Source: Anas platyrhynchos
Lineage: Eukaryota
DNA: 64,000 bases
Reading direction: 5' to 3'
Assembly: GCF_047663525.1 (NCBI RefSeq)
Contig: NC_092617.1
Span: 5,639,550-5,703,549, forward strand
Part shown: positions 4,228 through 25,129 of the stretch, piece after piece
Position numbering within the stretch: position 1 is the stretch's first letter
How the letters are laid out: every line of letters begins with the position of its first letter
The notes under the pieces: generated by a model
What the model was told of the DNA's origin: nothing
Seen by the model: the letters and a program-made list of their open reading frames with translations, nothing else
Database searches by the model: none
Translations under genes and position numbers: made by a program

Positions 4228-4311
4228 ATGGCGGCGGCCGAGGAGGAGGCGGCGGCGGCGGCCGAGGGGGACGGGGAAGGGGGCGACGAGGAGGCCCTGA
4301 GGGCCCTGGAG
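4228..4311 (+). CDS. TTC5: TTC5 coding exon 1 (MAAAEEEAAAAAEGDGEGGDEEALRALE), ATG at 4228, donor GTGGGG
   Basis: Acidic N-terminus matches human MMADEEEEVKPILQKLQE; phase 0 into exon 2. Confidence 0.7.
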
Positions 4312-7300: not shown

Positions 7301-10300
7301 CCATGGAAACGGGGCCTAGAGGGGGACAAAACCCGGTTGCCATGGAGATTTGGGGTGAAAAAGCCTGGTTTCCATGGAAACAGGGAGATTTGGGGTGAAA
7401 AAGCCCCATTTCTATGGCAATTTGGGGTGTCAGGGCCCGGTTGCCATGGAAACTAGGCCTAGAGGGGGACAAGGCCTGGTTGCTGTGGAGATTTGGGGTG
7501 AAAAAGTCCCGTTTCTATGGAGATTTTGGGGTGAAAAAGCATGGTTTCCATGGAAACGGGGAGATTTGGGGTGAAAAAGTCCCGTTTCTATGGCAATTTG
7601 GGTTGACAGGGCCTGGTTGCCATGGAAACGAGGCCTAGAAGGTGACAAGGCCCCGTTTCCATGGTGATTTGGGGTGAAAAAGTCCCGTTTCTATGACAAT
7701 TTGGGGTGACAGGGCCTGGTTTCCATGGAAACGGGGAGATTTGGGGTGAAAAAGTCCCATTTCTATGACAATTTGGGGTGACAAGGCCTGGTTGCCATGG
7801 AAACGAGGCCTAGAGGTGACAAGGCCCGGTTGCCATGGAGATTTTGGGGTGAAAAAGCCTGGTTTCCATGGAAACGGGGTGATTTGGGGTGACAAGGACC
7901 CGTTTCTATGGAGATTTGGGGTGAAAAAGTCCCATTTCTATGACAATTTGGGGGTGACAGGGCCTGGTTGCCATGGAAACGGGGTAATTTGGGGTGACAA
8001 AACCCGGTTGCCATGGAGATTTGGGGTGAAAAAGTCCCGTTTCTATGACAATTTGGGGTGAAAAAGCCTGGTTTCCATGGAAACGGGGTGATTTGGGGTG
8101 ACAAAGTCCCGTTTCTATGGAGATTTTGGGGTGACAAGGCCCGGTTGCCATGGTGACGACCCCAAAATCCCTTTTTTTCCCCCCAGGAGATGGTGGCCGA
8201 GCTGTACCGCTTCAAGGACAGCCTGCGGCTGGGTGACAACCCCCAGAAGGGTGACAACGACACCCCCATGGGTGACAACAACCCCACAGGTGACAAAAAT
8301 ACCCCTAAAGGTGACAAAAACACCCCCACGGGTGACAAAAATACCCCTAAGGGTGACAAAAACAACCCCAAGGGTGACAAAAACACCCCCACGGGTGACA
8401 AAAACACCCCTAAGGGTGACAAAAACACCCCAAAAGGTGACAAAAACACCCTAAAAGTGACAAAAACACCCCTAAGGGTGACAAAAACACCCCGAAGGGT
8501 GACAAAAACACCCCCAGGGTGACAAAAACACCCCTAAAGGTGACAAAAATACACTAAGGGTGACAAAAACACCCTAAGGGTGACAAAAATACCCCTAAAG
8601 GTGACAAAAACACCCCCAGGGTGACAAAAATACCTCTAAGGGTGACAAAAATACCCCAAAGGGTGACAAAAATACCCCTAAGGGTGACAAAAACACCCCT
8701 AAAAGTGACAAAAACACCCAAAAAATGACAAAAACACCCTAAAAGTGACAAAAACACCCCAAAAGGTGACAAAAACACCCTAAGGGTGACAAAAAAACCC
8801 AAAGGGTGACAAAAACACCCCTAAGGGTGACAAAAACACCCTAAAAGTGACAAAAATACCCCTAAGGGTGACAAAAACACCCTAAAAGTGACAAAAATAC
8901 CCCTAAGGGTGACAAAAATACCCTAAGGGTGATAAAAACACCCCCAGGGTGACAAAAACACCCCCACAGGTGACAAGAAGACCCCCACGGGTGACAAAAA
9001 CCCCCCAAAAAGTGACACCGACCCCCAAAAAGGTGACGGCGGTCGCCTGGCGGCGCTGGAGGAGGAGATGGAGCGCACGGTGCAGCGCATGGAGGCCGTG
9101 CACGGTGAGCCCCAAAATCACCCAAAACCCCCGAAAAACCCCACCCATAACCCCAAAACCCTGCCAAAAACCCAAAAACCCTGCCCAAAACCCAAAAACC
9201 CCACCCAGAACCCCAAAAACCCTGCCCACAACCCAAAAAACCCCACCCATAACCCCAAAACCCTGCCCATAACCCAAAAAACCCCACCCATAACCCCAAA
9301 AACCCACGCACAACCCCAAAAAACCCGCGCACAACCCAAAAACCCCCACCGAAAACCCAAAAACCCCCACCCATAACCCAAAAAACCCCACCCATAATCC
9401 AAAAACCCCACCCACAACCCAAAAAAACCCGCCCATAACCCCAAAAAAACCCACCCAGAACCCCAAAACTCCGCCCACAACCCAAAAAACCCCGCCCAGA
9501 ACCCAAAAACCCCACCCAAAACCCAAAAAACCCCACCCAGAACCCAAAAACCCCACCCAAAACCCAAAAAACCCCACCCATAACCCAAAAACCCCGCTTA
9601 CAACCCAAAAACCCCCGCCCAAAACCCCAAAACCCTGCCCACAACCCAAAAAACCCCACCCATAACCCAAAAAACCCCACCCAGAACCCAAAAACTCTGC
9701 CCATAACCCAAAAAACCCCGCATACAACCCCAAAAACCCCGCCCACAACCCAAAAAACCCCGCCCAGAACCCAAAATCCTGCCAAAAACCCAAAAACCCC
9801 ACCCACAACCCAAAAAACCCTGCCCACAACCCAAAAACCCCGCCCAGAACCCCAAAAACCCCGCCCACAACCCCAAAAACCCTGCCCACAACCCAAAAAA
9901 CCCCACCCAGAACCCCAAAAACCCCGCCCATAACCTAAAAACCCCGTCCAAAACCCAAAAAAACCCCACCCATAACCCAAAAAACCCCGCCCAGAACCCA
10001 AAAAACCCCGCCCACAACCCAAAAAACCCCACCTACGACCCCAAAAACCCCACCCAAAACCCAAAAACCTGCCCAGAACCCAAAAAATCCCACCCATAAC
10101 CCAAAAAACCCCACCCAAAACCCAAAAAACCCCACCCACAACCCCAAAAAACCCCGCCCAGAACCCCAAAAACCCCGCCCAGAACCCAAAGACCCCACCC
10201 ATAACCCAAAAAACCCCACCCAAAACCCAAAAACCCCGCCCAGAACCCCAAAACCCCACCCAAAACCCAAAAAACCCCGCCCAGAACCCAAAAACCCCGC

Positions 10301-13300
10301 CCAGAACCCAAAAACCCCGCCCAGAACCCAAAAACCCCGCCCAGAACCCAAAAAACCCTGCCAAAAACCCAAAAAAACCCGCCCAGAACCCAAAATCCTG
10401 CCAAAAACCCAAAAACCCCACCCACAACCCCTAAAACCCCGCCTACAACCCCAAAAACCCCACCCATAACCCAAAAACCCCACCCATAACCCAAAAACTC
10501 CACCCATAACCCAAAAAACCCCACCCCAAACCCAAAAACCCCACGCACAACCCAAAAACCCCACCCATAACCCAAAAAACCCTGCCCACAACCCAAAAAA
10601 CCCCACCCAAAACTCAAAAACCCCGCCCAGAACCCCAAAAACCCCGCCCACAACCCAAAAAACTCCTCCCACAACCCAAAAAACCCCGCCCAGAACCCAA
10701 AACCCTGCCAAAAACTCCAAAAGCCCCGCCCACAATGATTAGGCCACGCCTACAAGCCCCAAAGCCCCGCCCACAACCCCCACAAGCCCCGCCCACAAGG
10801 CCCCAAACCACGCCCCGTTAAGGCCACGCCCCGTCTATCCTTGCCTGCCCCTTATTTGGCTCTGGCCACGCCCCCTCCGTCTAAACCACGCCCCCTCCAC
10901 CAAGCCACGCCCCCTCCATTAAACCACACCCCCTCCATTAGGCCCCGCCCCCTCCTTTAAGCCACGCCCCCTTCCCATAAGCCACACCCCTATTAGACCC
11001 CGCCCACCTCCATTAAGCCCCACCCCCCTATTAGACCGCGCCCCCTCCCCCAAGCCCCGCCCCGTCCATTAAGCCCCACCCCTTTAATTAAGCCCCGCCC
11101 CCTCCCTTAAGCCCCGCCCCCTCCCTTTAACCCCACCCTAACCCCACCCCCATATTAAGCCCCGCCCACCTCCCCTAAGCCCCGCCCCCTCCCCTAAGCC
11201 ACGCCCCCTATTAGACCCCACCCACCTCCATTAAGCCCCGCCCACCTCCATTAGGCCACACCCCTCCCTTAAGCCCCGCCCCTCCCTTAAACCCCGCCCA
11301 CCTCCATTAAGCCCCTCCCACCTCCCTTAAGCCCCACCCCCCCCAAGCCCCTCCCCCTTTAAGCCCCGACCCCTCCCCTTAAGCCCCACCCCCAATATTA
11401 AGCCCTGCCCACCTCCATTAAGCCCCGCCCACCTCCATTAAGCCCCGCCCACCTCCCCAAGCCCCGCCCACCTCCATTAAGCCCCACCCCTTCCCTTAAG
11501 CCCCACCCACCTCCTCCAAGCCCCGCCCACCTCCATTAAGCCCCACCCCCAATATTAAGCCCCGCCCACCTCCCCCAAGCCCCGCCCACCCCCTTTTTTG
11601 AAGCCCCGCCCCCTTTTTGAAGCCCCGCCCCCTCAGTGTCCCCCCAGGGCCGGGGCCGGGCGCTGCTGCTGCGGGCGCGGGCGCTGGAGGCGGCCCCGGG
11701 GGGCCGGGGGAGGGCGGAGGCGGCGCTGGGCAGGGCCCTGAAGCTGCAGCCGGGGCTGGCGCCCGCCTGGACCCGCCTGGGGGAGGCCCGGTGGAGCCAC
11801 GGGGACATCACGGGGGCCACGAGGTGCTTCCAGGGGGCGCTGGCGCATGTAAGTAACCCTATAGAGGATCTGGGGGGGATTTTGGGGTTATATCGGGGGT
11901 TATAGGGTCAAAAAGGGGGGTTTAGGGTTGATATTGGGGGTTATGGGGTCAGTATGGGGTGTTATAGGGTCAATATTGGGGGTTATAGGGTCAGTATCAG
12001 GCGTTATGGGGTCAATTTTGGGGTTATAGGGTCATTATTGGGGGATATGGGGTCAAGATCAGGGGTTATAGGATCGATATCAGGGGTTATAGGGTCAATA
12101 TTGGGGGTTATGGGGTCAATATTGGGGGTTATAGGGTCAATATCAGGGGTTATAGGGTCGATTTTGGGGTTATAGGGTCGATATTGGGGCTTATAGGGTC
12201 AATATTGGGGGTTATGGGGTTGATTTAAGGGTTATAGGGTCAATACCAGGGGTTAAAGGATCACTTTTGGGGTTATAGGGTCAATATTGGGGGTTATAGA
12301 ATCAATATCAGGGGTTATAGGGTCCGTATGGGGTGTTATAGGGTTGATTTAGTGGTTATAGGGTCAATATTGGGGGTTATAGGGGGATTTGGGGGGGATT
12401 TGGGGGGTTATAGGGTCGATATCAGGGGTTATAGGGTCAATAGTGGGGGTTATAGGGTCAATATCAGGGGTTATGGGGTCAATATTGGGGTTATAGGGTC
12501 AGGATCAGGGGTTATGGGGTCGATTTCAGGGGTTATAGGGTCAAAAAGAGGGGGTTTAGGGTTGATTTTGGGGTTATAGGGTCGATATCAGGGGTTATAG
12601 GGTCAATATTGGGGGTTATGGGGTCAATATTGGGGGTTATGGGGTCAAAAAGAGGGGTTTTAGGGTCGATTTTGGGGTTATAGGGTCGATATTGGGGGTT
12701 ATAGGGTCAGTATCAGGGGTTATGGGGTCACTATGGGGAGTTAAAGGGTCGATTTTGGGGTTATAGGGTCAATATCAGGGGTTGTAGGGTCGATATCAGG
12801 GGTAATGGGGTCAAAAAGAGGGGTTTTAGGGTCAGTTTAGGGGTTATAGGGTCAATTTAGGGGTTATAGGGTCGATTTAGGGGTTATGGGGTCAGTATGG
12901 GGGTTATGGGGTGGATTTAGGGGATTTGGGGCGATTTGGGGTCAATTTGGGGTGGATGTAGGGGATTTTGGGGGGATTTGGTGTGGATTTGGGGTCTTTT
13001 GGGGTGCATTTGGGGGATTTGGGGCTATTTAGGGTGGATTCGGGGTGGATTTCGGGGATTTAGGGTCATTTGGGGTGGATTCGGGGCGGATTCGGGGTCA
13101 TTTGGGGTAGATTTGGGGGATTTGGGGTCTTTCGGGGTGGATTTGGGGGATTTGGGGTCAATTTGGGATTGATGGGTGGATTTAGGGGATTTGGGGTGGA
13201 TTTGGGGGATTTGGGGTCATTTGGGAGATTTGGGGGGGATTTGGGGTGGATTTGGGGCAGATTCAGGGTGAATTTGGGGGATTTAGGGTCAATTTGGGCT

Positions 13301-16300
13301 AGATTTGGGGGATTTGGGGTCATTTTGGGTGGATTTGGGGTGGATTTAGTGCATTTGGTTTTTTTCCATTTTTTTTTTTTCCTGTTTTTTTTCCTTTTTT
13401 TTGTTTTTTTTTTCCCTTTTTTGTTTTTTTCCCTTTTTGCTTTTTTTCCCTCTTTTATTTTTTTTCCTTTTTTTTCCCATTTTTGTTTTATTCTTTTTTT
13501 TGTTTTTTTCCCTTTTTTGTTTTTTTTTCCCTTTTTTTCCCATTTTTGTTTTTTTTTCCTTTTTTTTCCCATTTTTGTTTTTTTTCCCTTTTTTTCCCTT
13601 TTTTGTTTTTTTTCCCTTTTTTTTTCCCTTTTTATTTTTTTTTCCTTTTTTCTTTTTTTTCCCTTTTTTGTTTTTTTTTCCCTTTTTTTCCCTTTTTTGT
13701 TTTTTTCCCTTTTTTTTCCCTTTTTTGTTTTTTTTTTTCCCGTTTTTGTTTTTTTTTCCCCATTTTTGTTTTTTTCCCCTTTTTTTCCCTTTTTCTTTTC
13801 CCTTTTTTATTTTTTTTCCATTTTTTCCCGTTTTTCTTTTTTTCCCCCTTTTAGTGTTTTTTCCCTTTTTTTTATTTTTTCCCATTTTCGTTGTTTTTTC
13901 CCTTTTTTGTTTTTTTCCCTCTTTTATTTTTTTTCCTTTTTTTTTCCCCTTTTTGTTTTTTTTTCCATTTTTTTCCCTTTTTTTCTTTTTTCCCATTTAT
14001 TTCCTTTTTATTTTTTTCCCTTTTTTTTTCTTTTTTCCCTCTTTTATCTTTTCCCTTTTTTCTTTTTTTTCCCTTTTTCTTTTTTTTCCCTTTTTTCTTT
14101 TTTTTCCCTTTCTTTTTTTTCCCATTTTTGTTTTTTTTCCCATTTTTGTTTTTTTTCTCTTTTTTTTTTTTTTCCATTTTTTTTCCCCGTTTTTTGTTTT
14201 TCCATTTTTTCCCCTTTTTTTTCTTTTTTCCCCTTTTTTTTCTTTTTTCCCCTTTTTTTCCATTTTTTCCCCTTTTTTTTCTTTTTCCCCCTTTTTTTTC
14301 TTTTTCCCATTTTTCCCATTTTCCCCCTTTTTCCCCCCAAAAGTGCGACGACCCCGAAGCCCACCGCCTGCTGTCCATGGCCCTTCGCCGGGGGGGGTCC
14401 CTGCAGGAGGGGCTGGCCCAGGCCGAGGCCGCCGTGCGCTGCGACCCCACAGCCGGCAGCTCCTGGTGTGAGTGGGGGGCTTACGGGGTCCTTATAGGGT
14501 CGGGGGGCTTTTGGGGGGTCCCTATGGGGTCAGCGGGTCGGGGTCAACAGGGTTTGGTCGGGACGGTTTTGGGGTTAAATGCTGCGATTTTGGGGTCAAT
14601 CGGGCTAAAGGGGGAGGTTCTAGGGATAAAAGATCTTTTAGGGTCGTTTTGGGGTTTTATAGGGTCGGGGGGCTTCTGGGGGGTCCCTATGGGGTCAGCG
14701 GGTCGGGGGCAATAGGGTTTGGTCGGGATGGTTTTGGGGTTAAATGCTGCGATTTTGGGGTCGATCGGGCTAAAGGGGGAGGTTCTAGGATTGAAAAATC
14801 TTATGGGGTCGTTTTGGGGTTTTATAGGGTCGGGGGGCTTCGGGGGGGTCCCTATGGGGTCAGCGGGTCGGGGCCAATAGGGTTTGGTCAGGACGGTTTT
14901 GGGGTTAAATGCTGCGATTTTGGGGTCGATCGGGCTAAAGGGGGAGGTTCTAGGGATAAAAGATCTTTTAGGGTCGTTTTGGGGTTTTATAGGGTCGGGG
15001 GGCTTTTAGGGGGTCCCTATGGGGTCAGCGGGTTGGGGTTAAGGGGGGTTAATGGGGAGGTTTTTGGGGTTAAATGCTGCGATTTTGGGGTCGATCGGGC
15101 TAAAGGGGGAGGTTCTAGGGCTTTGGGAACATTTAGGGTCGTTTTGGGGTTTTATAGGGTCGGGGGGCTTCAGGGGGGTCCCTATGGGGTCAGCGGGTCG
15201 GGGTTAAGGGGGGTTAATGGGGAGGTTTTTGGGGTTAATTCATGCGATTTTGGGGTCGATCGGGCTAAAGGGGGAGGTTCTAGGGATAAAAGATCTTTTA
15301 GGGTCGTTTTGGGGTTTTATAGGGTCGGGGGGCTTTTGGGGGGTCCCTATGGGGTCACCGGGTCGGGGGCAATAGGGTTTGGTCGGGGGGGTTTTGGGGT
15401 TAATTCATGCGATTTTGGGGTCGATCGGGCTAAAGGGGGAGGTTCTAGGGCTAAAAGATCTTTTAGGGTCGTTTTGGGGTTTTATAGGGTCGGGGGGCTT
15501 TTGGGGGGTCCCTATGGGGTCAGCGGGTCGGGGGCAATAGGGTTTGGTGGGGAGGATTTTGGGGTTAATTCATGCAATTTTGGGGTCGATCGGGCTAAAG
15601 GGGGAGGTTCTAGGGATAAAAGATCTTTTAGGGTCGTTTTGGGGTTTTATAGGGTCGGGGGGCTTCTGGGGGGTCCCTATGGGGTCAGCGGGTCGGGGTC
15701 AATAGGGTTTGGTGGGGACATTTTTGGGGTTAATTCATGCGATTTTGGGGTCGATCGGGCTAAAGGGGGAGGTTCTAGGGCTAAAAGATGTTTTAGGGTC
15801 GTTTTGGGGTTTTATAGGGTCGGGGGGCTTTTGGGGGGTCCCTATGGGGTCAGCGGGTCGGGGTTAAGGGGGGTTAATGGGGAGGTTTTTGGGGTTAAAT
15901 GCTGCGATTTTGGGGTCGATCGGGCTAAAGGGGGAGGCTCTAGGGCTATGAGAATATTTAGAGTCGTTTTGGGGTTTTATAGGGTCGGGGGGCTTTTGGG
16001 GGGTTCCTATGGGGTCAGCGGGTCGGGGTCAATAGGGTTTGGTCAGGAGGTTTTTGGGGTTAATTCCTGCGATTTTGGGGTCGATCGGGCTAAAGGGGGA
16101 GGTTCTAGGGCTTTGGGAACATTTAGGGTCGTTTTGGGGTTTTATAGGGTCGGGGGGCTTTTAGGGGGTCCCTGTGGGGTCAGCGGGTCGGGGTCAATAG
16201 GGTTTGGTGGGGAGGTTTTTGGGGTTAAATGCTGCGATTTTGGGATCAATCGGGCTAAAGGGGGAAGTTCTAGGGATAAAAGATCTTTTAGGGTCGGTTT

Positions 16301-19300
16301 GGGGTTTTATAGGGTCGGGGGGCTTTTGGGGGGTCCCTGTGGGGTCAGGGGGTGTTTATGGGGTCGTTATAGGGTCGGGGGGCTTTATGGGGTCTTATAG
16401 GGTCGTTATTGGGTCGGGAGGTTTTTATAGGGTTTTGGGGTTTTTATGGGGTTTTGGGGTTTTTATGGGGTCCTTATAGGTTCGGGGGGGTTTTATGGGG
16501 TCAGGGGGGTTTTATGGGGTCGGGGAGGTTTTTGGGGTCAGGGGGTGGTTATGGGGTCGTTATGGGGTCGGGGGGCTTTATGGGGTCTTATAGGGTCGTT
16601 ATAGGGTCGGGAGGTTTTTATAGGGTTTTGGGGTTTTTATGGGGTTTTGGGGATTTTATGGGGTCCTTATAGGTTCGGGGGGGGTTTATGGGGTCAGGGG
16701 GTGTTTATGGGGTCGTTATAGGGTCGGGGGGCTTTATGGGGTCTTATAGGGTCGGGAGGTTTTTATAGGGTTTTGGGGTTTTTATGGGGTTTTGGGGTTT
16801 TTATGGGGTCCTTATAGGTTCGGGGGGGGTTTATGGGGTCAGGGGGTGTTTATGGGGTCGTTATAGGGTCGGGGGGCTTTATGGGGTCTTATAGGGTCGG
16901 GAGGTTTTTATAGGGTTTTGGGGTTTTTATGGGGTTTTGGGGTTTTTATGGGGTCCTTATAGGGTCGGGGGGCTTTTATGGGGTCGGGGGGGTTTTATGG
17001 GGTCGGGGGTTGTTTATGGGGTCGTTTTGGGGTCCCTAAATCCCCGTTTTTTCCCCCAGACGTGCTGGGCAACGCCTACGTCTCGCTCTTCTTCGCCGGG
17101 GGGCAGAGCCCCGAGGCCGCTCGCCGCGCGCTGGGCGCCTACGCGCAGGCGGTAGGCGGCCCTATAAATTTTTGGGGGACCCTATAGGGCCGGGGGGGGA
17201 CCCTATAGGGCCGGGGGGGACCCTATAGGGCCTTTGGGGTCCCTATAAGGCCTGGGGGGGCGTTATGGGGCAGGGGGAGGGCGTTATAGGGCCGGGGAGG
17301 GCGTTATAGGGCCGGGGAGGGGTTATAGGGTCAGGGGGTCTTGTAGGGTCCCTATAGGGCCGGGGGTCGCTATGGGGTCTCTATGGGGCCCTATAGACTC
17401 TATAGGGTCGCTATAGGGCCGGGGGTGTCTATGGGGTCCCTATGGGGCCCTATGGTCCCTATAGGGCCTGGGGCTGCTATGGGGTCTCTATGGGGCCCTA
17501 TAGTCGCTATAGGGTCCCTATAGGGCCAGGAGTGTCTATGGGGTCGTTATGGGGCCCTATGGCCACTATAGGGCCTGGGGCTGCTATGGGGTCTCTATGG
17601 GGCCCTATAGTCGCTATAGGGTCACTATAGGGCCCTATAGGGCTGGAGTTTGCTATGGGGTCCCTATAGGGCCAGGGGGTTCCATGGGGTCGTTATGGGG
17701 CCCTATGGCCACTATAGGGCCTGGGGCCGCTATGGGGTCTCTATGGGGCCCTATAGACTCTATAGGGTCACTATAGGGCCCTATAGGGCTGGAGTTTGCT
17801 ATGGGGTCCCTATAGGGCCGGGGGTGTCTATGGGGTCCCTATGGGGCCCTATGGTCCCTATAGGGCTTGGGGACGCTATGGGGTCTCTATGGGGCCCTAT
17901 AGACTCTATAGGGTCACTATAGGGCCAGGGCTGTCTATGGGGTCCCTATAGGGCCAGGGGGTTCCATGGGGTCCCTATGGGGCCATACGGCCACTATAGG
18001 GCCTGGGGCCGCTATGGGGTCTCTATGGGGCCCTGTAGTCTCTATAGGGTCACTGTGGGGCCCTATAGGGCTGGAGTTTGCTATGGGGTCCCTATAGGGC
18101 CAGGGGTGTCTATGGGGTCTCTATGGGGCCCTATGGCTGCTATAGGGCCTGGGGCCGCTATGGGGTCTCTATGGGGCCCTATAGACTCTATAGGGTCACT
18201 ATAGGGCCCTATAGGGCTGGAGTTTGCTATGGGGTCCCTATAGGGCCAGGGGTGTCTATGGGGTCCCTATAGGGCCGGGGGTGTCTATGGGGTCCCTATA
18301 GGGCCTGGGGCTGCTATGGGGTCTCTATGGGGCCCTATAGTCGCTATAGGGTCCCTATAGGGCCAGGGGTGTCTATGGGGTCATTATGGGGCCATACGGC
18401 CACTATAGGGCCTGGGGCCGCTATGGGGTCTCTATGGGGCCCTATAGACGCTATAGGGTCACTGTGGGGCCCTACAGCCCCTATAGGGCCCTATGGTCGC
18501 TATGGGGCCCTATGGGGCCTAGCGGGGCCTATTGGGGCCTATGGGGCAGGCCCCGTTGCTAGGGCCCGGCCCGGTTGCTAGGGGGCGTGGCCCCACGTCT
18601 CCATGGTAACGAGGCCCCGCCCCCCCCCCCGTCAGGAAAAAATCGACCCCGCCGCCGCAGCCAATCCCGACCTCCACCTCAACCGCGCCACGGTACGGCA
18701 GCCAATGGGGAGCGAGCGGGGGCGGGACTAAGGGCGGGAGGGCGGGGGGGGGAGGCAGCCAATGGGGAGCGAGCGGGGGCGGGACTAGGGGCGGGAGGGA
18801 AGAGCGGCGGGGGAATCAGCCAATGGGGAGCGAGGAGCGGCGCGGCTCAGCCAATGGGCGCGCAGCTGCTGCAGTACCAGGAGCGCTACGGGGCCGCCCT
18901 GGAGGGGCTGGCGCGCGCCGCCGCCTTGGCGCCGGAGTGGGCGGAGCCGCGCATGCGCCACGCGAGGCTCCTCGACTTCCTGGGCCGCCTCTGCGCGTTG
19001 CTGGGCAACCGCGTGAGTGACGGGAGGGGGGGGGGGCGGGGCTTAAAGGGGAAGGGGCGGGGCTTAAGGGAGGGGGCGGGGTTTAAGGGAGGGGGAGGCG
19101 GCGGCCATTTTGGGGGGGGTTTGGGGGAGATTTTGGGGATTTGGGGGTGGTTTTGGGGGGTTTTGGGGGGATTTTAGGGAATTTGGGGGGGATTTGGAGA
19201 GATTTGGGGGATTTGGGGGGGAATTAGAGGGATTTTGGGGGATTTTAGAGGGATTTTGTTGGAATTTGCAGAATTTGGGGCATTTTGGGGGACTTTGGGG

Positions 19301-22300
19301 GGATTTTGGGGGGATTTTGTGGTAATTTGGGGGGATTGGGGGCATTTTGGGGATGATTTAGGGGACTTTGGGGGGATTTTGGGGGATTTTGTGGTAATTT
19401 GAGGGGATTTGGGGGATTTTGGGGGCAATTTGAGGGATTTTGGGGGATTTTAGAGGGATTTTGTGGGAATTTGCAGAATTTGGGGCATTTTGGGGGGATT
19501 TTGGGGGGATTTGGGGGATGATTTGGGGGATTTTGGGGGGATTTTGGGGGGATTTTGAGGTAATTTGAGGGGATTTGGGGCATTTTGGGGGAATTTGGAG
19601 GGATTTGGGGGATTTTGGGGATGATTTGGGGGACTTTGGGGGGATTTTGTGGTAATTTGGTGGGATTTGGGAGGATTTTGGGGGGAATTTGAGGGATTTT
19701 GGGGGATTTTAGAGGGATTTTGTTGGAATTTGCAGAATTTGGGGCATTTTGGGGGGTTTTTGGGGGGATTTGGGGGAATTTTGGGGAGGATTTGGGGCAT
19801 TTTGGGGGGTTTTGGGGGAGTTTGGGGCGTTTTGGGGGATCTTGGGGGGACTTTGGGGGGATTTAGGGCATTTGGGTGGGATTTTAGGGGATTTTGGGGG
19901 GATTTGGAGGGATTTGGTGGGGGATTTGGGGTATTTTGGGGGGATTTTGGGGGGATTTTAGGGGGAATTGGGGGGGTTTGGTGGGATTTGGGGGTTTTTG
20001 GGGGGATTTGGGGGAGGATTTGTGGGATTTTGTGGGGATTTTGTGGGAATTTGGGGGTTTTGGGGGGGATTTGGGGGAATTTTGGGACAACTTGGGGGCA
20101 TTTTGGGGGAATTTGGGAAAATCTGGGGCAATTTGGGGGGATTTTGTTGTAATTTGGGGGATTTAGGGCGTTTTGGGGACATTTGGATGGATTTGGGGGC
20201 ATTTTGGGCGGATTTTGGGGGATTTGGGAGAATTTTGGGGTGATATGGGGCAACCTTGGGGCATTTTGGAGGGATTTGGGGAGGATTTGGGGCATTTGGG
20301 GGCATTTTAGGGGAATTTGGGGCATTTTGGGTGGATTTGGGGCAATTTGAGGGATTTGGTGTATTTTGGGGGGAATTTGGGGGTTTGGGGAATTTGGGGG
20401 GAAATTTGGAGGAATTTGGGGGCATTTTAAGGGGGATTTGGGGCCATTTGGGGTGGATTTGGGACCATTTGGGGCCGTCTTTGGTAGATTTGGGGCCATT
20501 TAGGGTTATTTTGGGTCCTTTGGGGTGGATTTGGGGCCATTTGGGGTGGTTTTGGGTCCATTTAGAATTATTTTGGGTCCTTTGGCGTGGATTTGGGGCC
20601 ATTTGGGGCCATCTTTGGTGGATTTGGGTCCATTTGGGGTGGATTTGGGGCCATTTGGGGTTATTTTGGGATCATTTAGGGTTATTTTGGGTCCTTTGGG
20701 GTGGATTTGGGGCCATTTGGGGTGGATTTGGGGCCTTTTAGGGTTATTCGGGGTCCATTTGGGGCCATATAGCGTGAATTTGGGGCCATTTGGGGTTATT
20801 TTGGGTCCTTTGGAGTGGATTTGGGGCCATTTGGGGCCATTTTGGGTGGTTTGGGGGCCATTTAGGGTGGATTTGGGGCCATTTTGGGTGGTTTTGGGGC
20901 CATTTGGGGTGAACTTGGGGCCATTTGGGGCCATTTTGGGTGGATTTGGGTGGTTTTGGGGCCATTTAGGGTTATTTTGGGTCCTTTGGGGTGGATTTGG
21001 GGCCATTTGGGGTGGATTTGGGACCATTTAGGGTGGATTTGGGGCCATTTAGGGTTATTTTGGGTCCTTTGGGGTGGTTTTGGGCCATTTTGGGTGCTTT
21101 TGGGGCCATTTTGGGTGGATTTGAGGCCATTTTGGGTGGATTTGGGGCCATTTGGGGTTATTTTGGGTGTTTTTGGGGGACATTTTGGGTGTTTTTGGGG
21201 CCATTTGGGGTTATTTTGGGGCCATTTGGGGCCATTGAGGGTGGATTTGGGGCCATTTATGGTTATTTTGGGTCCATTTGGGGTGGATTTGGGGCTGGTT
21301 TTGGGTCCATTTCCCTCCTTTTAGGGCAAAGTGCGGGGCAAGCGGCTGCGGGGCCTTTTGGGGTCGCTGCCCCCGTCCCTTTTGGGGCCGCTGGGGGGGG
21401 TCCCGACCCTTTTGGGGTCGCTGCGTTTTGGGGCCAACCCCGGGCGGGCGCTGCTGGGCCGGGTCCTCTTCAGCCTCACCCCGGACGAGGGCGTCCCCCT
21501 GTGAGTTTTGGGGTCATTTTGGGGGTTTTTGGGGTTTTTGGGGGGGGTTATGGGGTCGGGGAGGGGTTGTAGGGTCAGGGGGAGGGGGGGTTTGGGGGGG
21601 TTTAGGGGGGTTTTGGGGGGTTTAGGGGGGTTTTGGGGAGGTTTTAGGGGTTTTTGGGGGGTTTTGGGTGATCCTATCAGCGGGAGCATGGCCCTATAAG
21701 TGCACTGGGGTGTACTGGGAGGGGACTGGGGGATACTGGGAGGGGACTGGGCTATACTGGGAGGGACTGGGGGGGACTGGGATATGCTGGGAGGGACTGG
21801 GAGGGGACTGGGGGGGACTGGGAGGGACTGGGAGGGGACTGGGAGGGGAGTGGGGGATACTGGGAGAGGACTAGGATATACTGGGAGGGACTGGGAGGGG
21901 ACTGGGGGATACTGGGAGGGGACTGGGCGATACTGGGAGGGGACTGGGCTATACTGGGAGGGACTGGGGGGGGCTGGGATGAACTGGGAGGGATTGGGAG
22001 GGGTTGTTGGGTACTGGGGGAGAACTGGGATATACTGGGAGGGCACTGGGAGGGGACTGGGGGATACTGGGATATACTGGGAGGGCTCTGTGCTGCTTTA
22101 TACTGGGCTATACCAGTTTGTACCGGTATATACTGGTCCGTACTGGTCCATACTGGTTTATACTGGTCCATACTGGTTTGTACTGGTTTATACTGGTTCT
22201 TACTGGTTTATACTGGTTTGTACTGGTTCTTACTGGTTTGTACTGGTGCAGGACGCTGGGGGTGGCGGATGGGGCGGGGGCGGTGGCGGCCGTCAGCGTC

Positions 22301-23854
22301 TTCAACGCGGCCCCAAACTGGGGGGTACTGGTGGGGGACGCCCTGGGGCTGCCCGAGCCCCGCCTGCGCCAGCAACTGGTGCAGCACCAGGGGAAGGTAA
22401 CTGGGAGCACTGGGAGGCGCTGGGAGGGGGTTTGGGGGGGGCTGGGGGGGGACTGGGAGGGACTGGGAGGCACTGGGAAGGGGTTTGGGGGGGGTTAAAG
22501 GGGACTGGGAGGGAACTGGGATATACTGGGAGTGACTGGGAGGGGACTGGGAGGGGGTTAAGGGGGACTGGGAGGGCACTGGGATGAACTGGGAGGGATT
22601 GGGAGGGGGTTGTTGGTTAGTGGGGGGGAACTGGGATGAACTGGGAGTAAACTGGAATATACTGGGAGCAACTGGGAGGGACTGGGAGGGGGTTTGGGGG
22701 GCATATGGGGGGACTGGGAGGGGGCTGGGATGTACTGGGAGGGGACTGGGCCATACTGGGAGGGACTGGGAGGGACTGGTAAGGGGTTAAAGGGGACTGG
22801 GAGGGTACTGGGAGGATACTGGGAGGGAACTGGGATATACTGGGAGGGACTGGGAGGGGGTTAGGGAGGATTGGGGGGTATTGGGATTTACTGGGAGGGT
22901 ACTGGGAGGGCACTGGGTTATACTGGGAGGGACTGGGATGAACTGGGAGGGGGTCTGGGGAGGTGTGGGCATACAGGGAAGGCCTGGGCTATACTGGGAG
23001 GGAGCTGGGGGGCACTGGGGTGTACTGGGAGGGGACTGGGATGAACTGGGAGGACACTGGGATATACTGGGAGGGACTGGGAGGGGACTGGGGCATACTG
23101 GGATATACTGGGAGGGGTCTGTGCTACTTTATACTGGTTTGTACTGGGCCGTACCAGTTTGTACCAGTATATACTGGTCCGTACTGGTCCATACTGGTTT
23201 ATACTGGTCCATACTGGTTTGTACTGGTTTATACTGGTCCGTACTGGTCTATTTATACTGGTCCTTACTGGTGTATACTGGTTTGTACTGGGCTATACCA
23301 GTTTGTACCAGTATATACCGGTCCGTACTGGTCCCTACTGGTCCCTACTGGTCCGTACTGGTCCCTACTGGTCCGTACTGGTCCTTACTGGTTTATACTG
23401 GTTCTTACTGGTCTATTTATACTGGTCCTTACTGGTGTATACTGGTTTGTACTGGGCTATACCAGTTTGTACCAGTATATACCGGTCCCTACTGGTCCGT
23501 ACTGGTCCATACTGGTCTATACTGGTCCCTACTGGTCCGTACTGGTCCTTACTGGTTTATACTGGTTCTTACTGGTCTATTTATACTGGTCCTTACTGGT
23601 GTATACTGGTTTGTACTGGGCTATACCACTTTGTACCAGTATATACCAGTCCCTACTGGTCCATACTGGTCCCTACTGGTCCATACTGGTCCGTACTGGT
23701 CCTTACTGGTTTATACTGGTTCTTACTGGTGCAGACGTTCTCCTTCGTGTCCATCCGGGTCCCGTCCCCGCTGTCCCTGGTGGTCAACGGGCGCCGCCCC
23801 CCCCCCTCGGCCGCCGCCCCCCCCCGGCTGCAGTGCTCCAACCCCCCCAATTAA
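4228..23854 (+). CDS. TTC5: TTC5 (tetratricopeptide repeat domain 5, Strap) complete CDS, join(4228..4311,8187..8232,9033..9104,11637..11848,14344..14467,17060..17151,18636..18692,18866..19012,21325..21500,22252..22396,23735..23854), 1275 nt, 424 aa
   Basis: Spliced translation is colinear with vertebrate TTC5 (ALRALEEMVAELYRFKD; EEEMERTVQRMEAV; ALKLQPGLAPAWTRLGEARW TPR; YVLGNAYVSLFFAGGQSPEAARRALGAYAQA; EKIDPAAAANPDLHLNRAT; LLQYQERYGAALEGLARAAALAPEW; GKVRGKRLRGLLGSLPP; VSVFNAAPNWGVLVGDALGLPEPRLRQQLVQHQGK; TFSFVSIRVPSPLSLVVNGRRP). All junctions are GT-AG and the phases are consistent. Confidence 0.85.
4330..8160. repeat. ~3.8 kb complex tandem array in TTC5 intron 1 built from ~40-bp subunits GCCTGGTTGCCATGGAAACGAGGCCTAGAGGGGGACAAG and GGAGATTTGGGGTGAAAAAGTCCCGTTTCTATGG
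   Basis: Direct reading. Confidence 0.9.
8187..8232 (+). CDS. TTC5: TTC5 exon 2 (EMVAELYRFKDSLRL+G)
   Basis: Acceptor tttttttccccccag; donor G|GTGACA lies within the first unit of the 21-bp intronic repeat. Confidence 0.85.
8233..8940. repeat. 21-bp minisatellite GGTGACAAAAACACCCCTAAG (~34 units), TTC5 intron 2; period is a multiple of 3
   Basis: Direct reading. Confidence 0.9.
9033..9104 (+). CDS. TTC5: TTC5 exon 3 (GDGGRLAALEEEMERTVQRMEAVH+G)
   Basis: Acceptor ccaaaaag; donor G|GTGAGC; matches human EMEKTLQQMEEVVG. Confidence 0.85.
9110..10740. repeat. 20-bp minisatellite AACCCAAAAACCCCGCCCAG (~80 units), TTC5 intron 3; every unit carries an Sp1 GC box CCCCGCCC
   Basis: Direct reading. 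Confidence 0.9.
10800..11630. repeat. 22-bp minisatellite AAGCCCCGCCCACCTCCATT (~35 units), TTC5 intron 3; GC box in every unit
   Basis: Direct reading. Confidence 0.9.
11637..11848 (+). CDS. TTC5: TTC5 exon 4 (VSPQGRGRALLLRARALEAAPGGRGRAEAALGRALKLQPGLAPAWTRLGEARWSHGDITGATRCFQGALAH)
   Basis: Acceptor ccctcag chosen because it keeps the frame; donor CAT|GTAAGT; TPR region matches human [33 protein letters not shown]. Confidence 0.75.
11860..12930. repeat. 21-bp minisatellite GGGGTTATAGGGTCAATATTG (~50 units), TTC5 intron 4
   Basis: Direct reading. Confidence 0.9.
13340..14335. repeat. ~1 kb polypyrimidine tract (T5-8 C2-3)n on the plus strand, TTC5 intron 4, ending at the exon 5 acceptor
   Basis: Direct reading. 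Confidence 0.9.
14344..14467 (+). CDS. TTC5: TTC5 exon 5 (CDDPEAHRLLSMALRRGGSLQEGLAQAEAAVRCDPTAGSSW+T)
   Basis: Acceptor ccccccaaaag; donor T|GTGAGT; matches human CRNKVSLQNLSMVLRQL..DGRSW. Confidence 0.85.
14470..16400. repeat. ~160-bp higher-order repeat, about 12 tandem copies (GGGGGCTTTTGGGGGGTCCCTATGGGGTCAGCGGGTCGGGG...GGGCTAAAGGGGGAGGTTCTAGG...), TTC5 intron 5
   Basis: Monomer restarts at ~14495, 14655, 14815, 14975, and so on. Confidence 0.9.
17060..17151 (+). CDS. TTC5: TTC5 exon 6 (YVLGNAYVSLFFAGGQSPEAARRALGAYAQA)
   Basis: Acceptor ttttttcccccag; donor GCG|GTAGGC; matches human [31 protein letters not shown]. Confidence 0.85.
17160..18560. repeat. CCCTATAGGGCC / GGGGTCTCTATGGGGCCCTATAG family arrays, TTC5 intron 6
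   Basis: Direct reading. Confidence 0.85.
18636..18692 (+). CDS. TTC5: TTC5 exon 7 (EKIDPAAAANPDLHLNRAT)
   Basis: Acceptor ccccccccccgtcag; donor ACG|GTACGG; matches human EKVDRKASSNPDLHLNRAT. Confidence 0.85.
18693..18865 (+). promoter_or_regulatory. TTC5: Three and a half tandem ~48-bp units, each carrying CAGCCAATGG (CCAAT) plus GGGCGGG (GC box), filling TTC5 intron 7; the last unit supplies the exon 8 acceptor
   Basis: Direct repeat reading. Confidence 0.5.
18866..19012 (+). CDS. TTC5: TTC5 exon 8 (LLQYQERYGAALEGLARAAALAPEWAEPRMRHARLLDFLGRLCALLGNR)
   Basis: Acceptor gcgcgcag lies in the last unit of the CCAAT/GC repeat; an in-frame alternative acceptor 15 nt upstream (ctcag|ccaatggg) is possible; donor CGC|GTGAGT; matches human [28 protein letters not shown]. 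Confidence 0.75.
19090..21300. repeat. G4T4-like arrays (GGGGGATTTTGG)n, 19090..20470, then 21-bp GGGGCCATTTGGGGTGGATTT units, 20470..21300; TTC5 intron 8
   Basis: Direct reading. Confidence 0.9.
21325..21500 (+). CDS. TTC5: TTC5 exon 9 (GKVRGKRLRGLLGSLPPSLLGPLGGVPTLLGSLRFGANPGRALLGRVLFSLTPDEGVP+CT)
   Basis: Acceptor ttccctccttttag; donor CT|GTGAGT; matches human GKVKTKKLQSMLGSLRP..KVVFSLTTEEKVP. Confidence 0.85.
21700..23730. repeat. (GGGACTGGGAGG)n arrays (21700..22100, 22400..23130) and 12-bp (TACTGGTCCNTA)n arrays (22100..22250, 23130..23730); TTC5 introns 9-10
   Basis: Direct reading. Confidence 0.9.
22252..22396 (+). CDS. TTC5: TTC5 exon 10 (L TLGVADGAGAVAAVSVFNAAPNWGVLVGDALGLPEPRLRQQLVQHQGK)
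   Basis: Acceptor tactggtgcag comes from the 12-bp TACTGGT satellite; donor AAG|GTAACT; matches human [47 protein letters not shown]. Confidence 0.85.
23735..23854 (+). CDS. TTC5: TTC5 terminal exon (TFSFVSIRVPSPLSLVVNGRRPPPSAAAPPRLQCSNPPN*), stop TAA 23852..23854
   Basis: Acceptor tcttactggtgcag, again from the TACTGGT satellite; matches human [23 protein letters not shown]..RPQCE*. Confidence 0.9.
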   Translation, partial: TFSFVSIRVPSPLSLVVNGRRPPPSAAAPPRLQCSNPPN

Positions 23855-23899: not shown

Positions 23900-25100
23900 C
23901 GCCCCCTGCCCTGGGGTGGGCGGGGCTTGGGAAAAGGGGGCGGGGCCGCATGGGGGCCGCCATCTTGGGGGTGGCGGCGGGAGGTGGGGGCGGCCATGTT
24001 GGGTGTGGCAAAGGGGGAGTGGGGGCCGCCATCTTGGAGGGGGTGTGGCCCATGGGGGGGGCGGGGCTGAGGGGGTGGGGCCAAGGGCGTGGAGGGCATG
24101 GGGGGGTGGGGCCTGGTCACGTGAGGGCGGCCATCTTGGGTGGGCGTGTCTTAATGGAGGCGGCCATCTTGGGTGTGGCCATCACCATGGGGACCCCGCC
24201 ATGTTGGGTGTGGCCCCCACACACGTAGGCAGCCATCTTGGGTGTGGCCCAGTGGCATATGAAGGCAGCCATATTGGGTGTGGCACCCCCCCTAACAGTC
24301 AGCCATCTTGGGTGTGGCCAACCCCTTAGAAGTCCACCATGTTGGGTGTGGCACCCCAAAAAGCAGTCAGCCATGTTGGGTGTGGCCCAGTGACACAAGG
24401 GCAGCCATCTTGGGTGTGCCAGCCCCCTTCAGAGCCCGCCATCTTGGGTGTGGCCCAGTCACAAAAAGGCAGCCATGTTGGGTGGGGCCAAGGTCATGAA
24501 GGCAGCCATCTTGGGTGTGGCCACTGTCATGGAGGCGGCCATCTTGGGTGTGGCACACCCCCTCGGAGCCCGCCATGTTGGGTGTGACACCCCCCAAGCA
24601 GTCAGCCATCTTGGGTGTGGCCAAGTCCCATGAAGGCGGCCATCTTGGGTGTGGCAATCACCATAGGGACCCCACCATCTTGGGTGTGGCCACCCCACCA
24701 TTGGGCAGCCATCTTGGGTGGGCGTGTCCTAATGGAGGCAGCCATCTTGGGTGTGGCATCCCCCCAAAACAGGCAGCCATCTTGGGTGGGTGTGTCCCCA
24801 CTGCCGTCGGCCATCTTGGGTGTGGCCCCGTCACATCAAGGCGGCCATGTTGGGTGTGGCAACCCCCTGGGGGTGGCCATCTTGGGTGTGGCAATCACCA
24901 TGGAGGCCGCCATCTTGGGCGTGGCCAACCCCGAAGCAGTCAGCCATCTTGGGCGTGGCCTACATCACGGGGGCGGCCATGTTGGGTGTGGCCCAGTCCC
25001 ATGGGGGCGGCCATCTTGGGCGTGGCCAACCCTGGGGGCGGCCATCTTGGGCGTGTCGCCGTCCCCCCGGGGGCGGCCATGTTGGGCGTGGCGCCCCGGT
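23900..25100. promoter_or_regulatory. ~1.2 kb tandem array (~40-bp unit, about 30 copies) of GGC(C/A)GCCAT(C/G)TTGGGTGTGGC; each unit carries the YY1 core consensus (GCCATnTT / AAGATGGC); sits between the convergent 3' ends of TTC5 and HNRNPC
   Basis: Direct reading; motif matches the YY1 core consensus. Confidence 0.55.
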
Positions 25101-25122: not shown

Positions 25123-25129
25123 CGTTAAC

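What the first reader, a model, noticed from the sequence alone, without database searches (positions are those of the whole stretch)
8187..23734. Functional TTC5 splice sites are embedded in satellite monomers
The exon 10 and exon 11 acceptors are both the identical 11-mer TACTGGTGCAG, a variant of the 12-bp TACTGGTCCNTA satellite that fills the 150-600 bp immediately upstream of each exon. The exon 2 donor G|GTGACA is the first unit of the 21-bp GGTGACAAAAACACC repeat, whose period is a multiple of 3; reading through would encode an in-frame (GDKNTPK)n tract for 110 codons. The exon 8 acceptor lies in the last unit of the CAGCCAATGG repeat and has an in-frame alternative 15 nt upstream. Splicing fidelity here depends on satellite sequence. 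Repeat-length polymorphism could create or abolish competing sites.
Basis: seen in the sequence. Interest (0 to 1): 0.6.

Follow-up and report, generated by a model that had tools for sequence, protein, structure and literature searches.

The report
Duck TTC5: repeat-filled introns, one new
This is the mallard duck TTC5 gene, whose introns are almost entirely local tandem repeats running right up to the splice sites (a pattern already described in chicken), and one of these introns looks newly created, because a repeat that once coded for protein expanded and is now mostly spliced out.

Summary
The window encodes an 11-exon TTC5 gene whose translation equals mallard RefSeq XP_071885812.1 and XP_071885811.1 exactly. 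All 10 introns are 93-99% tandem arrays and the exons 0%. TACTGGTGCAG occurs only twice in 64 kb, at the exon 10 and exon 11 acceptors. The exon 8 acceptor lies at the last CAGCCAATGG copy, with an in-frame AG 15 nt upstream.

Corrections:
- The satellite period is 10 bp, not 12.
- The GDKNTPK register lasts about 70 codons, not 110.
- RefSeq puts the exon 2 donor at repeat unit 4 (8289) or 5 (8310), not unit 1. The acceptor (8969|8970) is also inside the array.

The general pattern is already published for chicken dot chromosomes as "sequence stuttering" (Hron et al. 2026). The identical acceptors arise because duck intron 9 carries a copy of the intron 10 arrays; ostrich, crane and chicken intron 9 do not.

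What goes beyond the published pattern is intron 2. Gharial, ostrich, crane and chicken have one uninterrupted exon there. In duck a coding 21-bp repeat expanded, lost its frame internally, and is removed at CAG|GTGACA...CAG|GTGACA. That fits intron birth by tandem duplication. No duck transcript reads were examined here.

The parts
4228..4311 (+). TTC5 exon 1 (ATG at 4228; donor GAG|GTGGGG)
   Evidence: The translation matches RefSeq XP_071885812.1 exactly.
4325..8153 (+). Intron 1 arrays (32-, 72-, 103- and 278-bp units such as ATTTGGGGTGACAAGGCCTGGTTGCCATGGAG)
   Evidence: TRF. Intron 1 is 99% covered by arrays.
8187..8289 (+). TTC5 exon 2 as in RefSeq X2. X1 extends it to 8310. From 8233 on, the exon consists of repeat units 1-3 (X2) or 1-4 (X1).
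8233..9032 (+). Array of 40 GTGAC units (consensus GGTGACAAAAACACCCCTAAG). Units 1-10 and the last 4 are 18 or 21 nt and keep the frame. Thirteen interior units are 20 nt and break it.
   Evidence: GGTGACAAAAA occurs 27 times, all within this array.
8290..8969 (+). Intron 2 as annotated: 680 nt in X2, or 8311-8969 (659 nt) in X1. It is bounded by CAG|GTGACA at both ends and sits in phase 1 inside a Gly codon. It is absent from the other species examined.
   Evidence: The corresponding exon is uninterrupted in gharial, ostrich, crane and chicken.
8970..9104 (+). TTC5 exon 3 as in RefSeq. Its first 63 nt are repeat units.
10865..11636 (+). 19/20-bp GCCCCGCCCCCTCCATTAA array. Its last unit, GCCCCGCCCCCTCAG, forms the exon 4 acceptor.
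11637..11848 (+). TTC5 exon 4
13369..14335 (+). T/C-rich (TTTTTTCCC)n array ending 8 nt before exon 5. The AG-free zone upstream of the acceptor is 487 nt.
14344..14467 (+). TTC5 exon 5
17060..17151 (+). TTC5 exon 6
18636..18692 (+). TTC5 exon 7 (contains GCAGCCAAT at 18657)
18697..18858 (+). Intron 7 repeat with 57-bp units, each carrying CAGCCAATGG followed by a GGGGCGGG box. Copies start at 18699, 18756, 18817 and 18848.
18866..19012 (+). TTC5 exon 8. The acceptor AG is at 18864-18865. In-frame alternative AGs lie 15 nt upstream (18849-18850) and 9 nt downstream.
21325..21500 (+). TTC5 exon 9. An array starts 4 nt after its donor.
21704..22251 (+). 3' part of intron 9: an ACTGGGAGG-type array followed by a TACTGGT 10-bp array, ending in TACTGGTGCAG (22241-22251). 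It is a copy of part of intron 10.
22252..22396 (+). TTC5 exon 10. It holds a third copy of ACTGGTGCAG at 22375-22384. The donor is AAG|GTAACTGGGAG.
22397..23734 (+). Intron 10: ACTGGGAGG-type arrays (22397-23121) followed by a TACTGGTCC 10-bp array (23171-23730), ending in TACTGGTGCAG (23724-23734).
   Evidence: Orthologous arrays occur in crane, chicken and ostrich.
23735..23854 (+). TTC5 exon 11, including the TAA stop

Best explanation
The region is the mallard TTC5 gene in a repeat-dense, GC-rich chromosome segment of the avian dot-chromosome type. Its neighbours are HNRNPC and SUPT16H. Local tandem duplication ('sequence stuttering') has filled every intron with arrays that stop only at the nucleotides selection protects: the exons and the minimal splice signals.

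Several splice sites are therefore terminal or variant repeat units. These are the acceptors of exons 3, 4, 8, 10 and 11 and the donors of exons 2, 9 and 10. For those acceptors, the branch point and pyrimidine tract must be supplied by repeat units.

The two identical acceptor 11-mers are paralogous. The intron 10 block (ACTGGGAGG array, then TACTGGTCC array) is old: it is seen in ostrich, crane and chicken. In the duck lineage it was copied into the 3' part of intron 9.

Intron 2 is a different case, a newly born intron.
1. The bird TTC5 linker between LYRFRD and EEMER is a hypervariable coding repeat that lies inside one ancestral exon.
2. In the duck lineage a 21-bp unit, GGTGACAAAAACACCCCTAAG (GDKNTPK), expanded to about 40 copies.
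3. Interior copies picked up 20-nt variants and stop codons.
4. The AG|GT carried by the units now serves as donor (8289 or 8310) and acceptor (8969), removing 659-680 nt and leaving 40-47 repeat-encoded residues in the protein.

Shown here: the anatomy, the identity to the RefSeq models, the absence of the intron in four outgroups, the paralogy of the arrays, and purifying selection on the gene.

Inferred: that the RefSeq junctions are the ones used in vivo, that X1 and X2 are alternative splicing rather than allelic array-length difference, and that the array grew from the coding repeat.
For: Gene and species:
- The window CDS equals XP_071885812.1 and XP_071885811.1 exactly.

Stuttering anatomy:
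- Introns are 93-99% TRF-covered and exons 0%. Arrays lie 0-41 nt from donors and 2-88 nt from acceptors.
- 81% of the window is arrays, and 91% of the TTC5 span.
- The pattern is published for chicken, including copying of splice sites and intron-length polymorphism (PMC12954441).

Array paralogy:
- TACTGGT occurs 57 times on the + strand, all within 22131-23724.
- Duck 21708-22246 aligns colinearly with 22707-23291 at 77% identity over 599 columns, E = 2.5e-135.
- Crane intron 10 ends ...(GTACTGGTCC)5 GTACTGGTGtcccccccccccgCAG|A. Chicken ends ...TACTGGTCCCACAG|ACG. Ostrich has the ACTGGGAGG array after the exon 10 donor.
- Intron 9 of ostrich, crane and chicken is unrelated and has ordinary acceptors.

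New intron:
- The homologous exon is uninterrupted in gharial, ostrich, crane and chicken. The other nine intron positions are conserved.
- CAGGTGACA occurs only at 8287 and 8967, which are the X2 donor and the acceptor.
- The array edges keep the frame, while 13 interior units are 20 nt; TRF also reports the array at a 41-bp period (= 21 + 20).
- Read-through ends in a stop codon.
- dN/dS is 0.27 against a related anseriform cDNA, so the gene is functional and the array must be removed.
- The related anseriform cDNA has GGCGAC-CCCCC coding repeats at the same place.
- Every bird examined has its own peptide repeat in this linker.
- The AG|GT...AG|GT, phase-1 Gly-codon geometry matches the Rogers/Hellsten model (PMC3265369).
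Against: - No duck RNA evidence was seen here. No duck transcript contig was found. XP_ records are computational models.
- That NCBI's Gnomon pipeline builds alternative isoforms only from transcript alignments is my recollection, not a tested fact.
- Units 5-10 stay in frame although they are annotated as intronic.
- Apart from intron 2, exon-versus-intron BLAST and k-mer screens did not exceed shuffled controls, so exon origin of the other arrays is not shown.
- ACTGGGAGG arrays also occur in HNRNPC introns. That family is not strictly local, which weakens the orthology argument for it.
- The intron 1 arrays share AGGGTGACAAAA with intron 2, so the array could have been seeded from intron 1.
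- Chromosome identity (a dot chromosome) was not tested directly.
Confidence: 0.75

Rival explanations
1. Exon 2 ends at the first repeat unit (8232|8233) and exon 3 starts at 9033. The whole 800-nt array is then intron, and no repeat-encoded residues are in the protein.
For: The pair is GT-AG and in frame, and gives a 424-aa product that aligns with orthologues without an insert. Non-avian TTC5 has a short linker.
Against: Both RefSeq isoforms use 8289 or 8310 as donor and 8970 as exon start. TGG|GTGACA lacks the -2A/-3C consensus that CAG|GTGACA has. The acceptor at 9032 is preceded by A-rich CCCCCAAAAAG, whereas the RefSeq acceptor has CACCCCCACAG. All other birds encode a long repeat linker here.
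Confidence: 0.12
2. Assembly or annotation artefact. The arrays, or their internal 20-nt units, are long-read assembly errors, and the intron inside the repeat was invented by the annotation pipeline to rescue the reading frame.
For: Such regions are hard to assemble. The chicken assembly examined has a poly-G frameshift in this very exon, which spoils its RefSeq N-terminus. No transcript evidence was seen.
Against: All 11 exons are intact and under purifying selection. The 20-nt units differ by several substitutions each, and TRF reports a 41-bp period for the array, which is not what random indel errors would give. Independent assemblies of crane, chicken and ostrich show the same array families at the same intron 10 position. 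Two isoforms differing by exactly one unit, flanked by unique units, are distinguishable in reads.
Confidence: 0.07
3. The intron 2 array did not grow from the coding repeat. It came from the intron 1 GGGGTGACA satellite family spreading across exon 2, as the intron 10 family spread into intron 9. Under this reading the new intron is an inserted satellite.
For: The intron 1 arrays carry GGGGTGACAA and AGGGTGACAAAA motifs. The end of chicken intron 1 also has GGGGTGACAGCGACGG. The intron 10 to intron 9 copy shows that spread across an exon is possible.
Against: The longest shared word is 12 nt. The frame-keeping diverged edge units encode GD-heptads continuous with the flanking coding sequence. 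The related anseriform cDNA and crane already have GGCGAC/GGTGAG GD/GE codons at this spot.
Confidence: 0.15
4. The identical 11-mer acceptors reflect convergent selection for a specific splicing signal rather than common descent of the arrays.
For: GGTGCAG| is also the exon 10 acceptor in crane. ACTGGTGCAG occurs a third time, inside exon 10.
Against: About 550 nt upstream of both acceptors align colinearly at 77% identity. Chicken and ostrich use different acceptor sequences for the same exons.
Confidence: 0.05

Closest known systems
Sequence stuttering / exon stuttering of chicken dot-chromosome genes (Hron et al. 2026, Genome Biol Evol, PMC12954441)
   Same: Introns are almost wholly imperfect local tandem blocks confined between intact exons. 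Repeats can include splice donor or acceptor sequence and create potential alternative sites. The regions are GC-rich. The authors also report repeat-rich, interspersed-repeat-poor regions and intron lengths that vary between individuals.
   Different: - That paper describes chicken and does not list TTC5.
- It states that repeat blocks never cross into exons and that coding regions stay intact. Here the exon 2 linker is itself a stuttered coding repeat, and part of it has become an intron.
- It states that orthologous introns expand independently. Here the intron 10 array families sit at the same place in ostrich, crane, chicken and duck.
- Here one family lies on both sides of exon 10.
Intron gain by tandem duplication of an AGGT-containing exon segment (Rogers 1989; Hellsten et al. 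2011, PMC3265369; potato RdRp case, PMC4974935)
   Same: The new intron lies inside an ancestral exon. It is bounded by AG|GT at both ends, its sequence is homologous to the flanking coding sequence, and it is in phase 1 inside a Gly codon, as in ATP2A1. Splicing restores the frame.
   Different: The duck case involves about 40 copies of a 21-bp unit rather than one duplication of a longer segment. Splicing does not restore the ancestral peptide exactly, because 40-47 repeat residues stay in. Several equivalent donors exist. The event is lineage-specific to duck or Anatidae, not 420 million years old.
Exitrons / intronisation of coding sequence
   Same: Coding-derived sequence inside an ancestral exon is removed by splicing, and the exon-derived edges keep their coding potential.
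   Different: Exitrons are usually optional and keep the frame when retained. Here retention gives a frameshift and a stop codon, so removal is obligatory for a full-length protein.
Satellite-filled introns of Drosophila Y-linked giant genes (reviewed by Fingerhut and Yamashita 2022, cited in PMC12954441)
   Same: Functional genes whose introns consist of tandem satellite DNA that must be transcribed and spliced.
   Different: The Drosophila introns are megabase-scale, simple satellites in heterochromatin with testis-specific expression. They are not exon-adjacent arrays on the scale of a few kilobases, and splice sites are not formed by repeat units.

Membership tests
Avian dot-chromosome sequence stuttering (Hron et al. 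2026) | Introns dominated by locally expanded imperfect tandem blocks, with exons left intact | tested here: met
   Introns are 93-99% TRF-covered and exons 0% (exon 11: 34%, not examined). The full CDS is intact.
Avian dot-chromosome sequence stuttering (Hron et al. 2026) | Repeat clusters are local, meaning specific to one intron | tested here: inconclusive
   GGTGACAAAAA occurs only in intron 2, CAGCCAATGG only in intron 7, and TACTGGTCC only in introns 9-10. ACTGGGAGG also occurs 61 times in HNRNPC introns, and one family spans exon 10.
Avian dot-chromosome sequence stuttering (Hron et al. 2026) | Location on a dot microchromosome (GC-rich, repeat-dense, poor in interspersed repeats) | tested here: inconclusive
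   81% of the window is tandem arrays. The RefSeq protein comes from a 6.3-Mb record. The chicken orthologue lies on a 322-kb chromosome record. Chromosome class and interspersed repeats were not examined.
Avian dot-chromosome sequence stuttering (Hron et al. 2026) | Exon stuttering: copies of an exon border with its splice site in the adjacent intron, scoring above shuffled controls | tested here: inconclusive
   Not above shuffles for the 11 exons using the minimal exon 2/3 boundaries. It is clearly met for the RefSeq exon 2/3 ends, which are repeat units. It is also seen in ostrich intron 7, which has 3 copies of the exon 8 start.
Avian dot-chromosome sequence stuttering (Hron et al. 2026) | Intron length varies between individuals | not testable with these tools
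   Only one duck sequence is available. X1 and X2 could reflect either splicing or alleles.
Intron gain by tandem duplication at AGGT (Rogers/Hellsten) | Intron absent at that position in outgroups and sister lineages | tested here: met
   There is a single exon in gharial, ostrich, crane and chicken.
Intron gain by tandem duplication at AGGT (Rogers/Hellsten) | Both intron ends are AG|GT copies of the same duplicated motif | tested here: met
   CAG|GTGACA occurs at 8287-8295 and 8967-8975, the only two copies in the window.
Intron gain by tandem duplication at AGGT (Rogers/Hellsten) | Intron sequence is homologous to the flanking coding sequence | tested here: met
   The same GTGAC unit series runs from exon 2 through the intron into exon 3.
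Intron gain by tandem duplication at AGGT (Rogers/Hellsten) | The new intron is actually spliced in vivo | not testable with these tools
   Only RefSeq models are available. No duck transcript contigs were found. Indirect support: read-through gives a stop codon and the gene has dN/dS of 0.27.
TTC5 orthologue | Full-length similarity to vertebrate TTC5, with TPR and TTC5_OB domains | tested here: met
   E = 5e-264 to duck TTC5 and 1e-105 to mammalian TTC5. The hits carry PF16669 (TTC5_OB) and TPR families. Nine of ten intron positions are shared with gharial.

The most novel reading that the evidence does not exclude
Duck TTC5 intron 2 is a spliceosomal intron born recently, after the duck lineage split from chicken and probably within Anseriformes. 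A coding minisatellite inside an ancestral exon stuttered out to about 40 copies, lost its frame internally, and is now removed at AG|GT sites carried by the repeat unit itself. Donors in successive units give protein isoforms that differ by one heptad. If this is general, dot-chromosome stuttering would be an active source of new introns and of length-variable protein linkers in a vertebrate group where intron gain is thought to be almost non-existent.
Probability: 0.55. Interest if true: 0.7.

Novelty: new variant of a known kind. Interest (0 to 1): 0.5.

Why it matters
The headline observation, splice sites sitting in satellite units, is a duck example of a pattern published for chicken in 2026. 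By itself it is confirmatory.

Three points add to the published picture:
- Stuttering can act inside a coding exon. The TTC5 linker is a different tandem peptide repeat in every bird examined.
- In duck this has produced what looks like a new intron with the textbook AG|GT...AG|GT signature. Documented vertebrate intron gains are very few, and this one is young enough to catch intermediates in related ducks and geese.
- Some stutter arrays are not ephemeral. The intron 10 families hold their position across ostrich, crane, chicken and duck, and an array block can be copied across an exon.

Practical consequences follow for annotating bird microchromosome genes, where junctions inside repeats are ambiguous. 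Array-length variants could also change splice choice or protein length.

Tried and rejected
- Exon-derived origin of the intron arrays. I suspected exon 10 (ACTGGGGGGTACTGGTGGGGG, AACTGGTGCAG), exon 7 (GCAGCCAAT) and exon 9 (CTTTTGGGG) had seeded the neighbouring satellites. BLASTn-short of every exon against every intron did not exceed 30 shuffles per exon (real maximum 26 bits; shuffles reached 30). Shared words were 12 nt or shorter and mostly G-runs. This is not demonstrated, and the third ACTGGTGCAG in exon 10 remains unexplained.
- Direct transcript evidence for duck. RefSeq X1 and X2 are not on record in the contig index. A second protein search with the N-terminal 185 aa returned only three distant bird hits. 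The only cDNA-like contigs found belong to a related anseriform (L005, SRR20314577) and to chicken.
- An out-of-order 'ostrich' exon hit was an artefact of two loci sharing one FASTA file. It was corrected.
- TTC5, CCNB1IP1 and RABGGTA were not found in the supplementary text of Hron et al..
- Intron 1 as the source of the intron 2 array. Only 12-mers are shared, so this is kept as a minor rival.
- No formal splice-site scoring was done (no MaxEnt-type model was available). The comparisons of site strength are by consensus only.
Full report
**What is in the window.**
TRF covers 81% of the 64 kb with tandem arrays. Sequence without repeats is confined to short islands. Probing with a remembered human TTC5 sequence and then reading the islands gave an 11-exon, all GT-AG coding sequence on the + strand from 4228 to 23854. 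A database search identified it as TTC5. The best hit was mallard RefSeq 'TTC5 isoform X2'.

With exon 2 ending at 8289 and exon 3 starting at 8970, the translation equals XP_071885812.1 residue for residue. With exon 2 ending at 8310 it equals XP_071885811.1. The window is therefore Anas platyrhynchos. Every junction from exon 3 onwards that I derived from sequence agrees with the annotation.

A cDNA-like Logan contig from a related anseriform (L005) runs uninterrupted across the homologous junctions. Downstream, on the minus strand, lie HNRNPC and SUPT16H, also with repeat-filled introns.

**Checking the stated observations.**
- TACTGGTGCAG occurs exactly twice in the window, ending at the last intron base before exons 10 and 11. 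None is expected by chance.
- The arrays upstream of these exons are 159 and 560 bp of TACTGGT-type units. The period is 10 bp (TACTGGTCCN), not 12.
- CAGCCAATGG occurs four times, all in the 173-nt intron 7, as the core of a 57-bp unit. The last copy ends 7 nt before the exon 8 acceptor, and its own AG gives an in-frame site 15 nt upstream. Another in-frame AG lies 9 nt downstream.
- GGTGACA at 8231 is indeed the first of about 40 units.
- Read-through from 8187 is open for 111 codons. The GD-heptad frame is lost at the first 20-nt unit, at 8437.
RefSeq instead splices CAG|GTGACA (8289|8290) or AAG|GTGACA (8310|8311) to CACAG|GTGACA (8969|8970). This leaves 40 or 47 repeat-encoded residues in the protein.
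- CAGGTGACA occurs only at those two places in the window.

**The pattern is gene-wide and already has a name.**
All ten TTC5 introns are 93-99% arrays and the exons are 0%. Arrays begin 0-41 nt after donors and end 2-88 nt before acceptors. The exon 4 acceptor is also the last unit of its array.

Hron et al. 2026 (PMC12954441) describe this for chicken dot chromosomes as 'sequence stuttering'. [quoted passage not shown] They also report that intron lengths vary between individual chickens. TTC5 is not among the genes named there.

**Why the two acceptors are identical.**
The TACTGGT family is confined to introns 9 and 10. Duck 21708-22246 aligns colinearly with 22707-23291 (77% over 599 columns, E = 2.5e-135). 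The alignment crosses the boundary between the ACTGGGAGG-type and TACTGGT-type arrays.

The intron 10 arrangement is old:
- Ostrich, crane and chicken all have ACTGGGAGG arrays straight after the exon 10 donor.
- Crane and chicken have the TACTGGTCC array before exon 11. Crane ends ...GTACTGGTGtcccccccccccgCAG|A, and chicken ends ...TACTGGTCCCACAG|ACG.
- Relative to crane, duck lacks the poly-C spacer, so the array abuts the AG directly.

Intron 9 of ostrich, crane and chicken is unrelated and has ordinary acceptors. The simplest reading is that the intron 10 block was copied into intron 9 in the duck lineage. The identical 11-mers are therefore paralogous, not convergent.

Two caveats apply. 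ACTGGGAGG arrays also occur in HNRNPC introns. A third ACTGGTGCAG sits inside exon 10 and is unexplained.

**Intron 2 is the interesting part.**
In gharial, the exon homologous to duck exons 2 plus 3 is one uninterrupted exon, while the other nine intron positions are conserved. It is also one exon in ostrich, crane and chicken.

The peptide between LYRFRD and EEMER is a conserved short linker in non-avian species. In every bird examined it is a different tandem peptide repeat:
- ostrich: GGDT
- chicken: D/G runs with length variants among transcripts
- zebra finch: CDP/TCDP
- cormorant: PTDxPxC
- king vulture: DPNR
- seriema: DLKA
- the related anseriform: GDPPG
- duck: GDKNTPK

In duck the array has frame-keeping, diverged edge units (ten at the 5' side, four at the 3' side). 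It has 13 interior 20-nt units, and TRF also reports the array at a 41-bp period, which equals 21 + 20. It cannot be translated through. The rest of the gene is under purifying selection, with dN/dS of 0.27 against the related anseriform cDNA over 364 codons. The array must therefore be removed, and the annotated removal is at AG|GT...AG|GT, in phase 1 of a Gly codon.

This is the geometry of the Rogers/Hellsten model of intron birth by tandem duplication of an AGGT-containing exon segment (PMC3265369). Hron et al. state that stutter blocks were never seen to cross into exons and that coding regions remain intact. TTC5 exon 2 is an exception, and duck shows where that can lead.

**What is not shown.**
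- I found no duck transcript sequences.
- XP_ records are models. My belief that alternative XP isoforms require transcript support rests on memory of NCBI's pipeline.
- 44 GT-AG pairs within exons 2-3 are in frame and stop-free, six of them with AG|GT donors.
- X1 versus X2 could be alternative splicing or allelic array length.
- Whether the array grew from the coding repeat or was seeded from the GGGGTGACA family of intron 1 is unresolved, because only 12-mers are shared.
- Exon origin of the other arrays was tested and not supported.

**Verdict.**
The general phenomenon is already known from chicken. The lineage-specific intron formed from a stuttered coding repeat, and the copy of an array block across exon 10, are new variants worth following up with duck RNA and with genomes of related species.

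Noticed in passing
window 25000-41750 (- strand): HNRNPC on the minus strand. Exon islands include 38902-39088 (RRM: [33 protein letters not shown]...), 36465-36565, 28029-28154 and 25575-25638. Its introns are also filled with arrays.
   Followed up: partly
window 52400-64000 (- strand): SUPT16H (FACT subunit) 3' exons on the minus strand, for example 52481-52746 ([13 protein letters not shown]), 55980-56132 and 61378-61712. Together with TTC5 and HNRNPC these genes lie together on human 14q11.2 (from memory).
   Followed up: no
window 36000-40000 (- strand): There are 61 copies of ACTGGGAGG on the minus strand, which is the sense orientation for HNRNPC, on both sides of its RRM exon. This is the same satellite family as in TTC5 introns 9 and 10, so the family is not strictly local.
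   Followed up: partly
window 3836-4200: The TTC5 promoter region appears to be tandemly duplicated. Blocks are repeated that contain GCCGCCATCTTG (YY1-like), CCCATATATGG (CArG-like) and CCTATTGGTCGG (inverted CCAAT), just upstream of the ATG at 4228.
   Followed up: no
window 18697-18858; L003 2388-2524: Each intron 7 unit pairs a CCAAT box (CAGCCAATGGG) with a GC box (GGGGCGGG), which looks promoter-like. Crane intron 7 also holds two CCAATG motifs, and exon 7 itself contains GCAGCCAAT.
   Followed up: no
L002 12640-13360 (ostrich): Ostrich intron 7 carries several copies of the exon 8 acceptor plus the exon start. YEERYGPALEG is encoded three times, and there are degenerate copies containing a stop codon. 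This is a clear case of exon stuttering.
   Followed up: partly
L004 2937-3153 (chicken): Exon 2 in the chicken assembly GCA_016700215.2 has a frame shift in a poly-G run relative to the transcript-derived proteins. This explains the aberrant N-terminus of XP_040550010.1 (MAAAMKMRMMMM...). Chicken transcripts also vary in D/G-run length, and one form (P0010) lacks 23 linker residues.
   Followed up: partly
window 22375-22384: A third copy of ACTGGTGCAG lies inside exon 10 (codons QLVQ), 12 nt before the donor. Its relation to the two acceptor copies is unexplained.
   Followed up: partly
window 21355-21436: Exon 9 contains three CTTTTGGGG(T/C)CGCTG copies (encoding LLGSL, LLGPL, LLGSL) and GTTTTGGGGCCA. 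These share 11-12-mers with arrays of introns 5 and 8. TTTGGGG occurs 563 times on the + strand of the window.
   Followed up: partly
window 3360-3380: An AATAAA signal at about 3372 sits in a non-repetitive island upstream of TTC5. In ostrich, a RING-finger gene ends just upstream of TTC5 on the same strand (L002 1-309). This may be the 3' end of the CCNB1IP1 orthologue.
   Followed up: no
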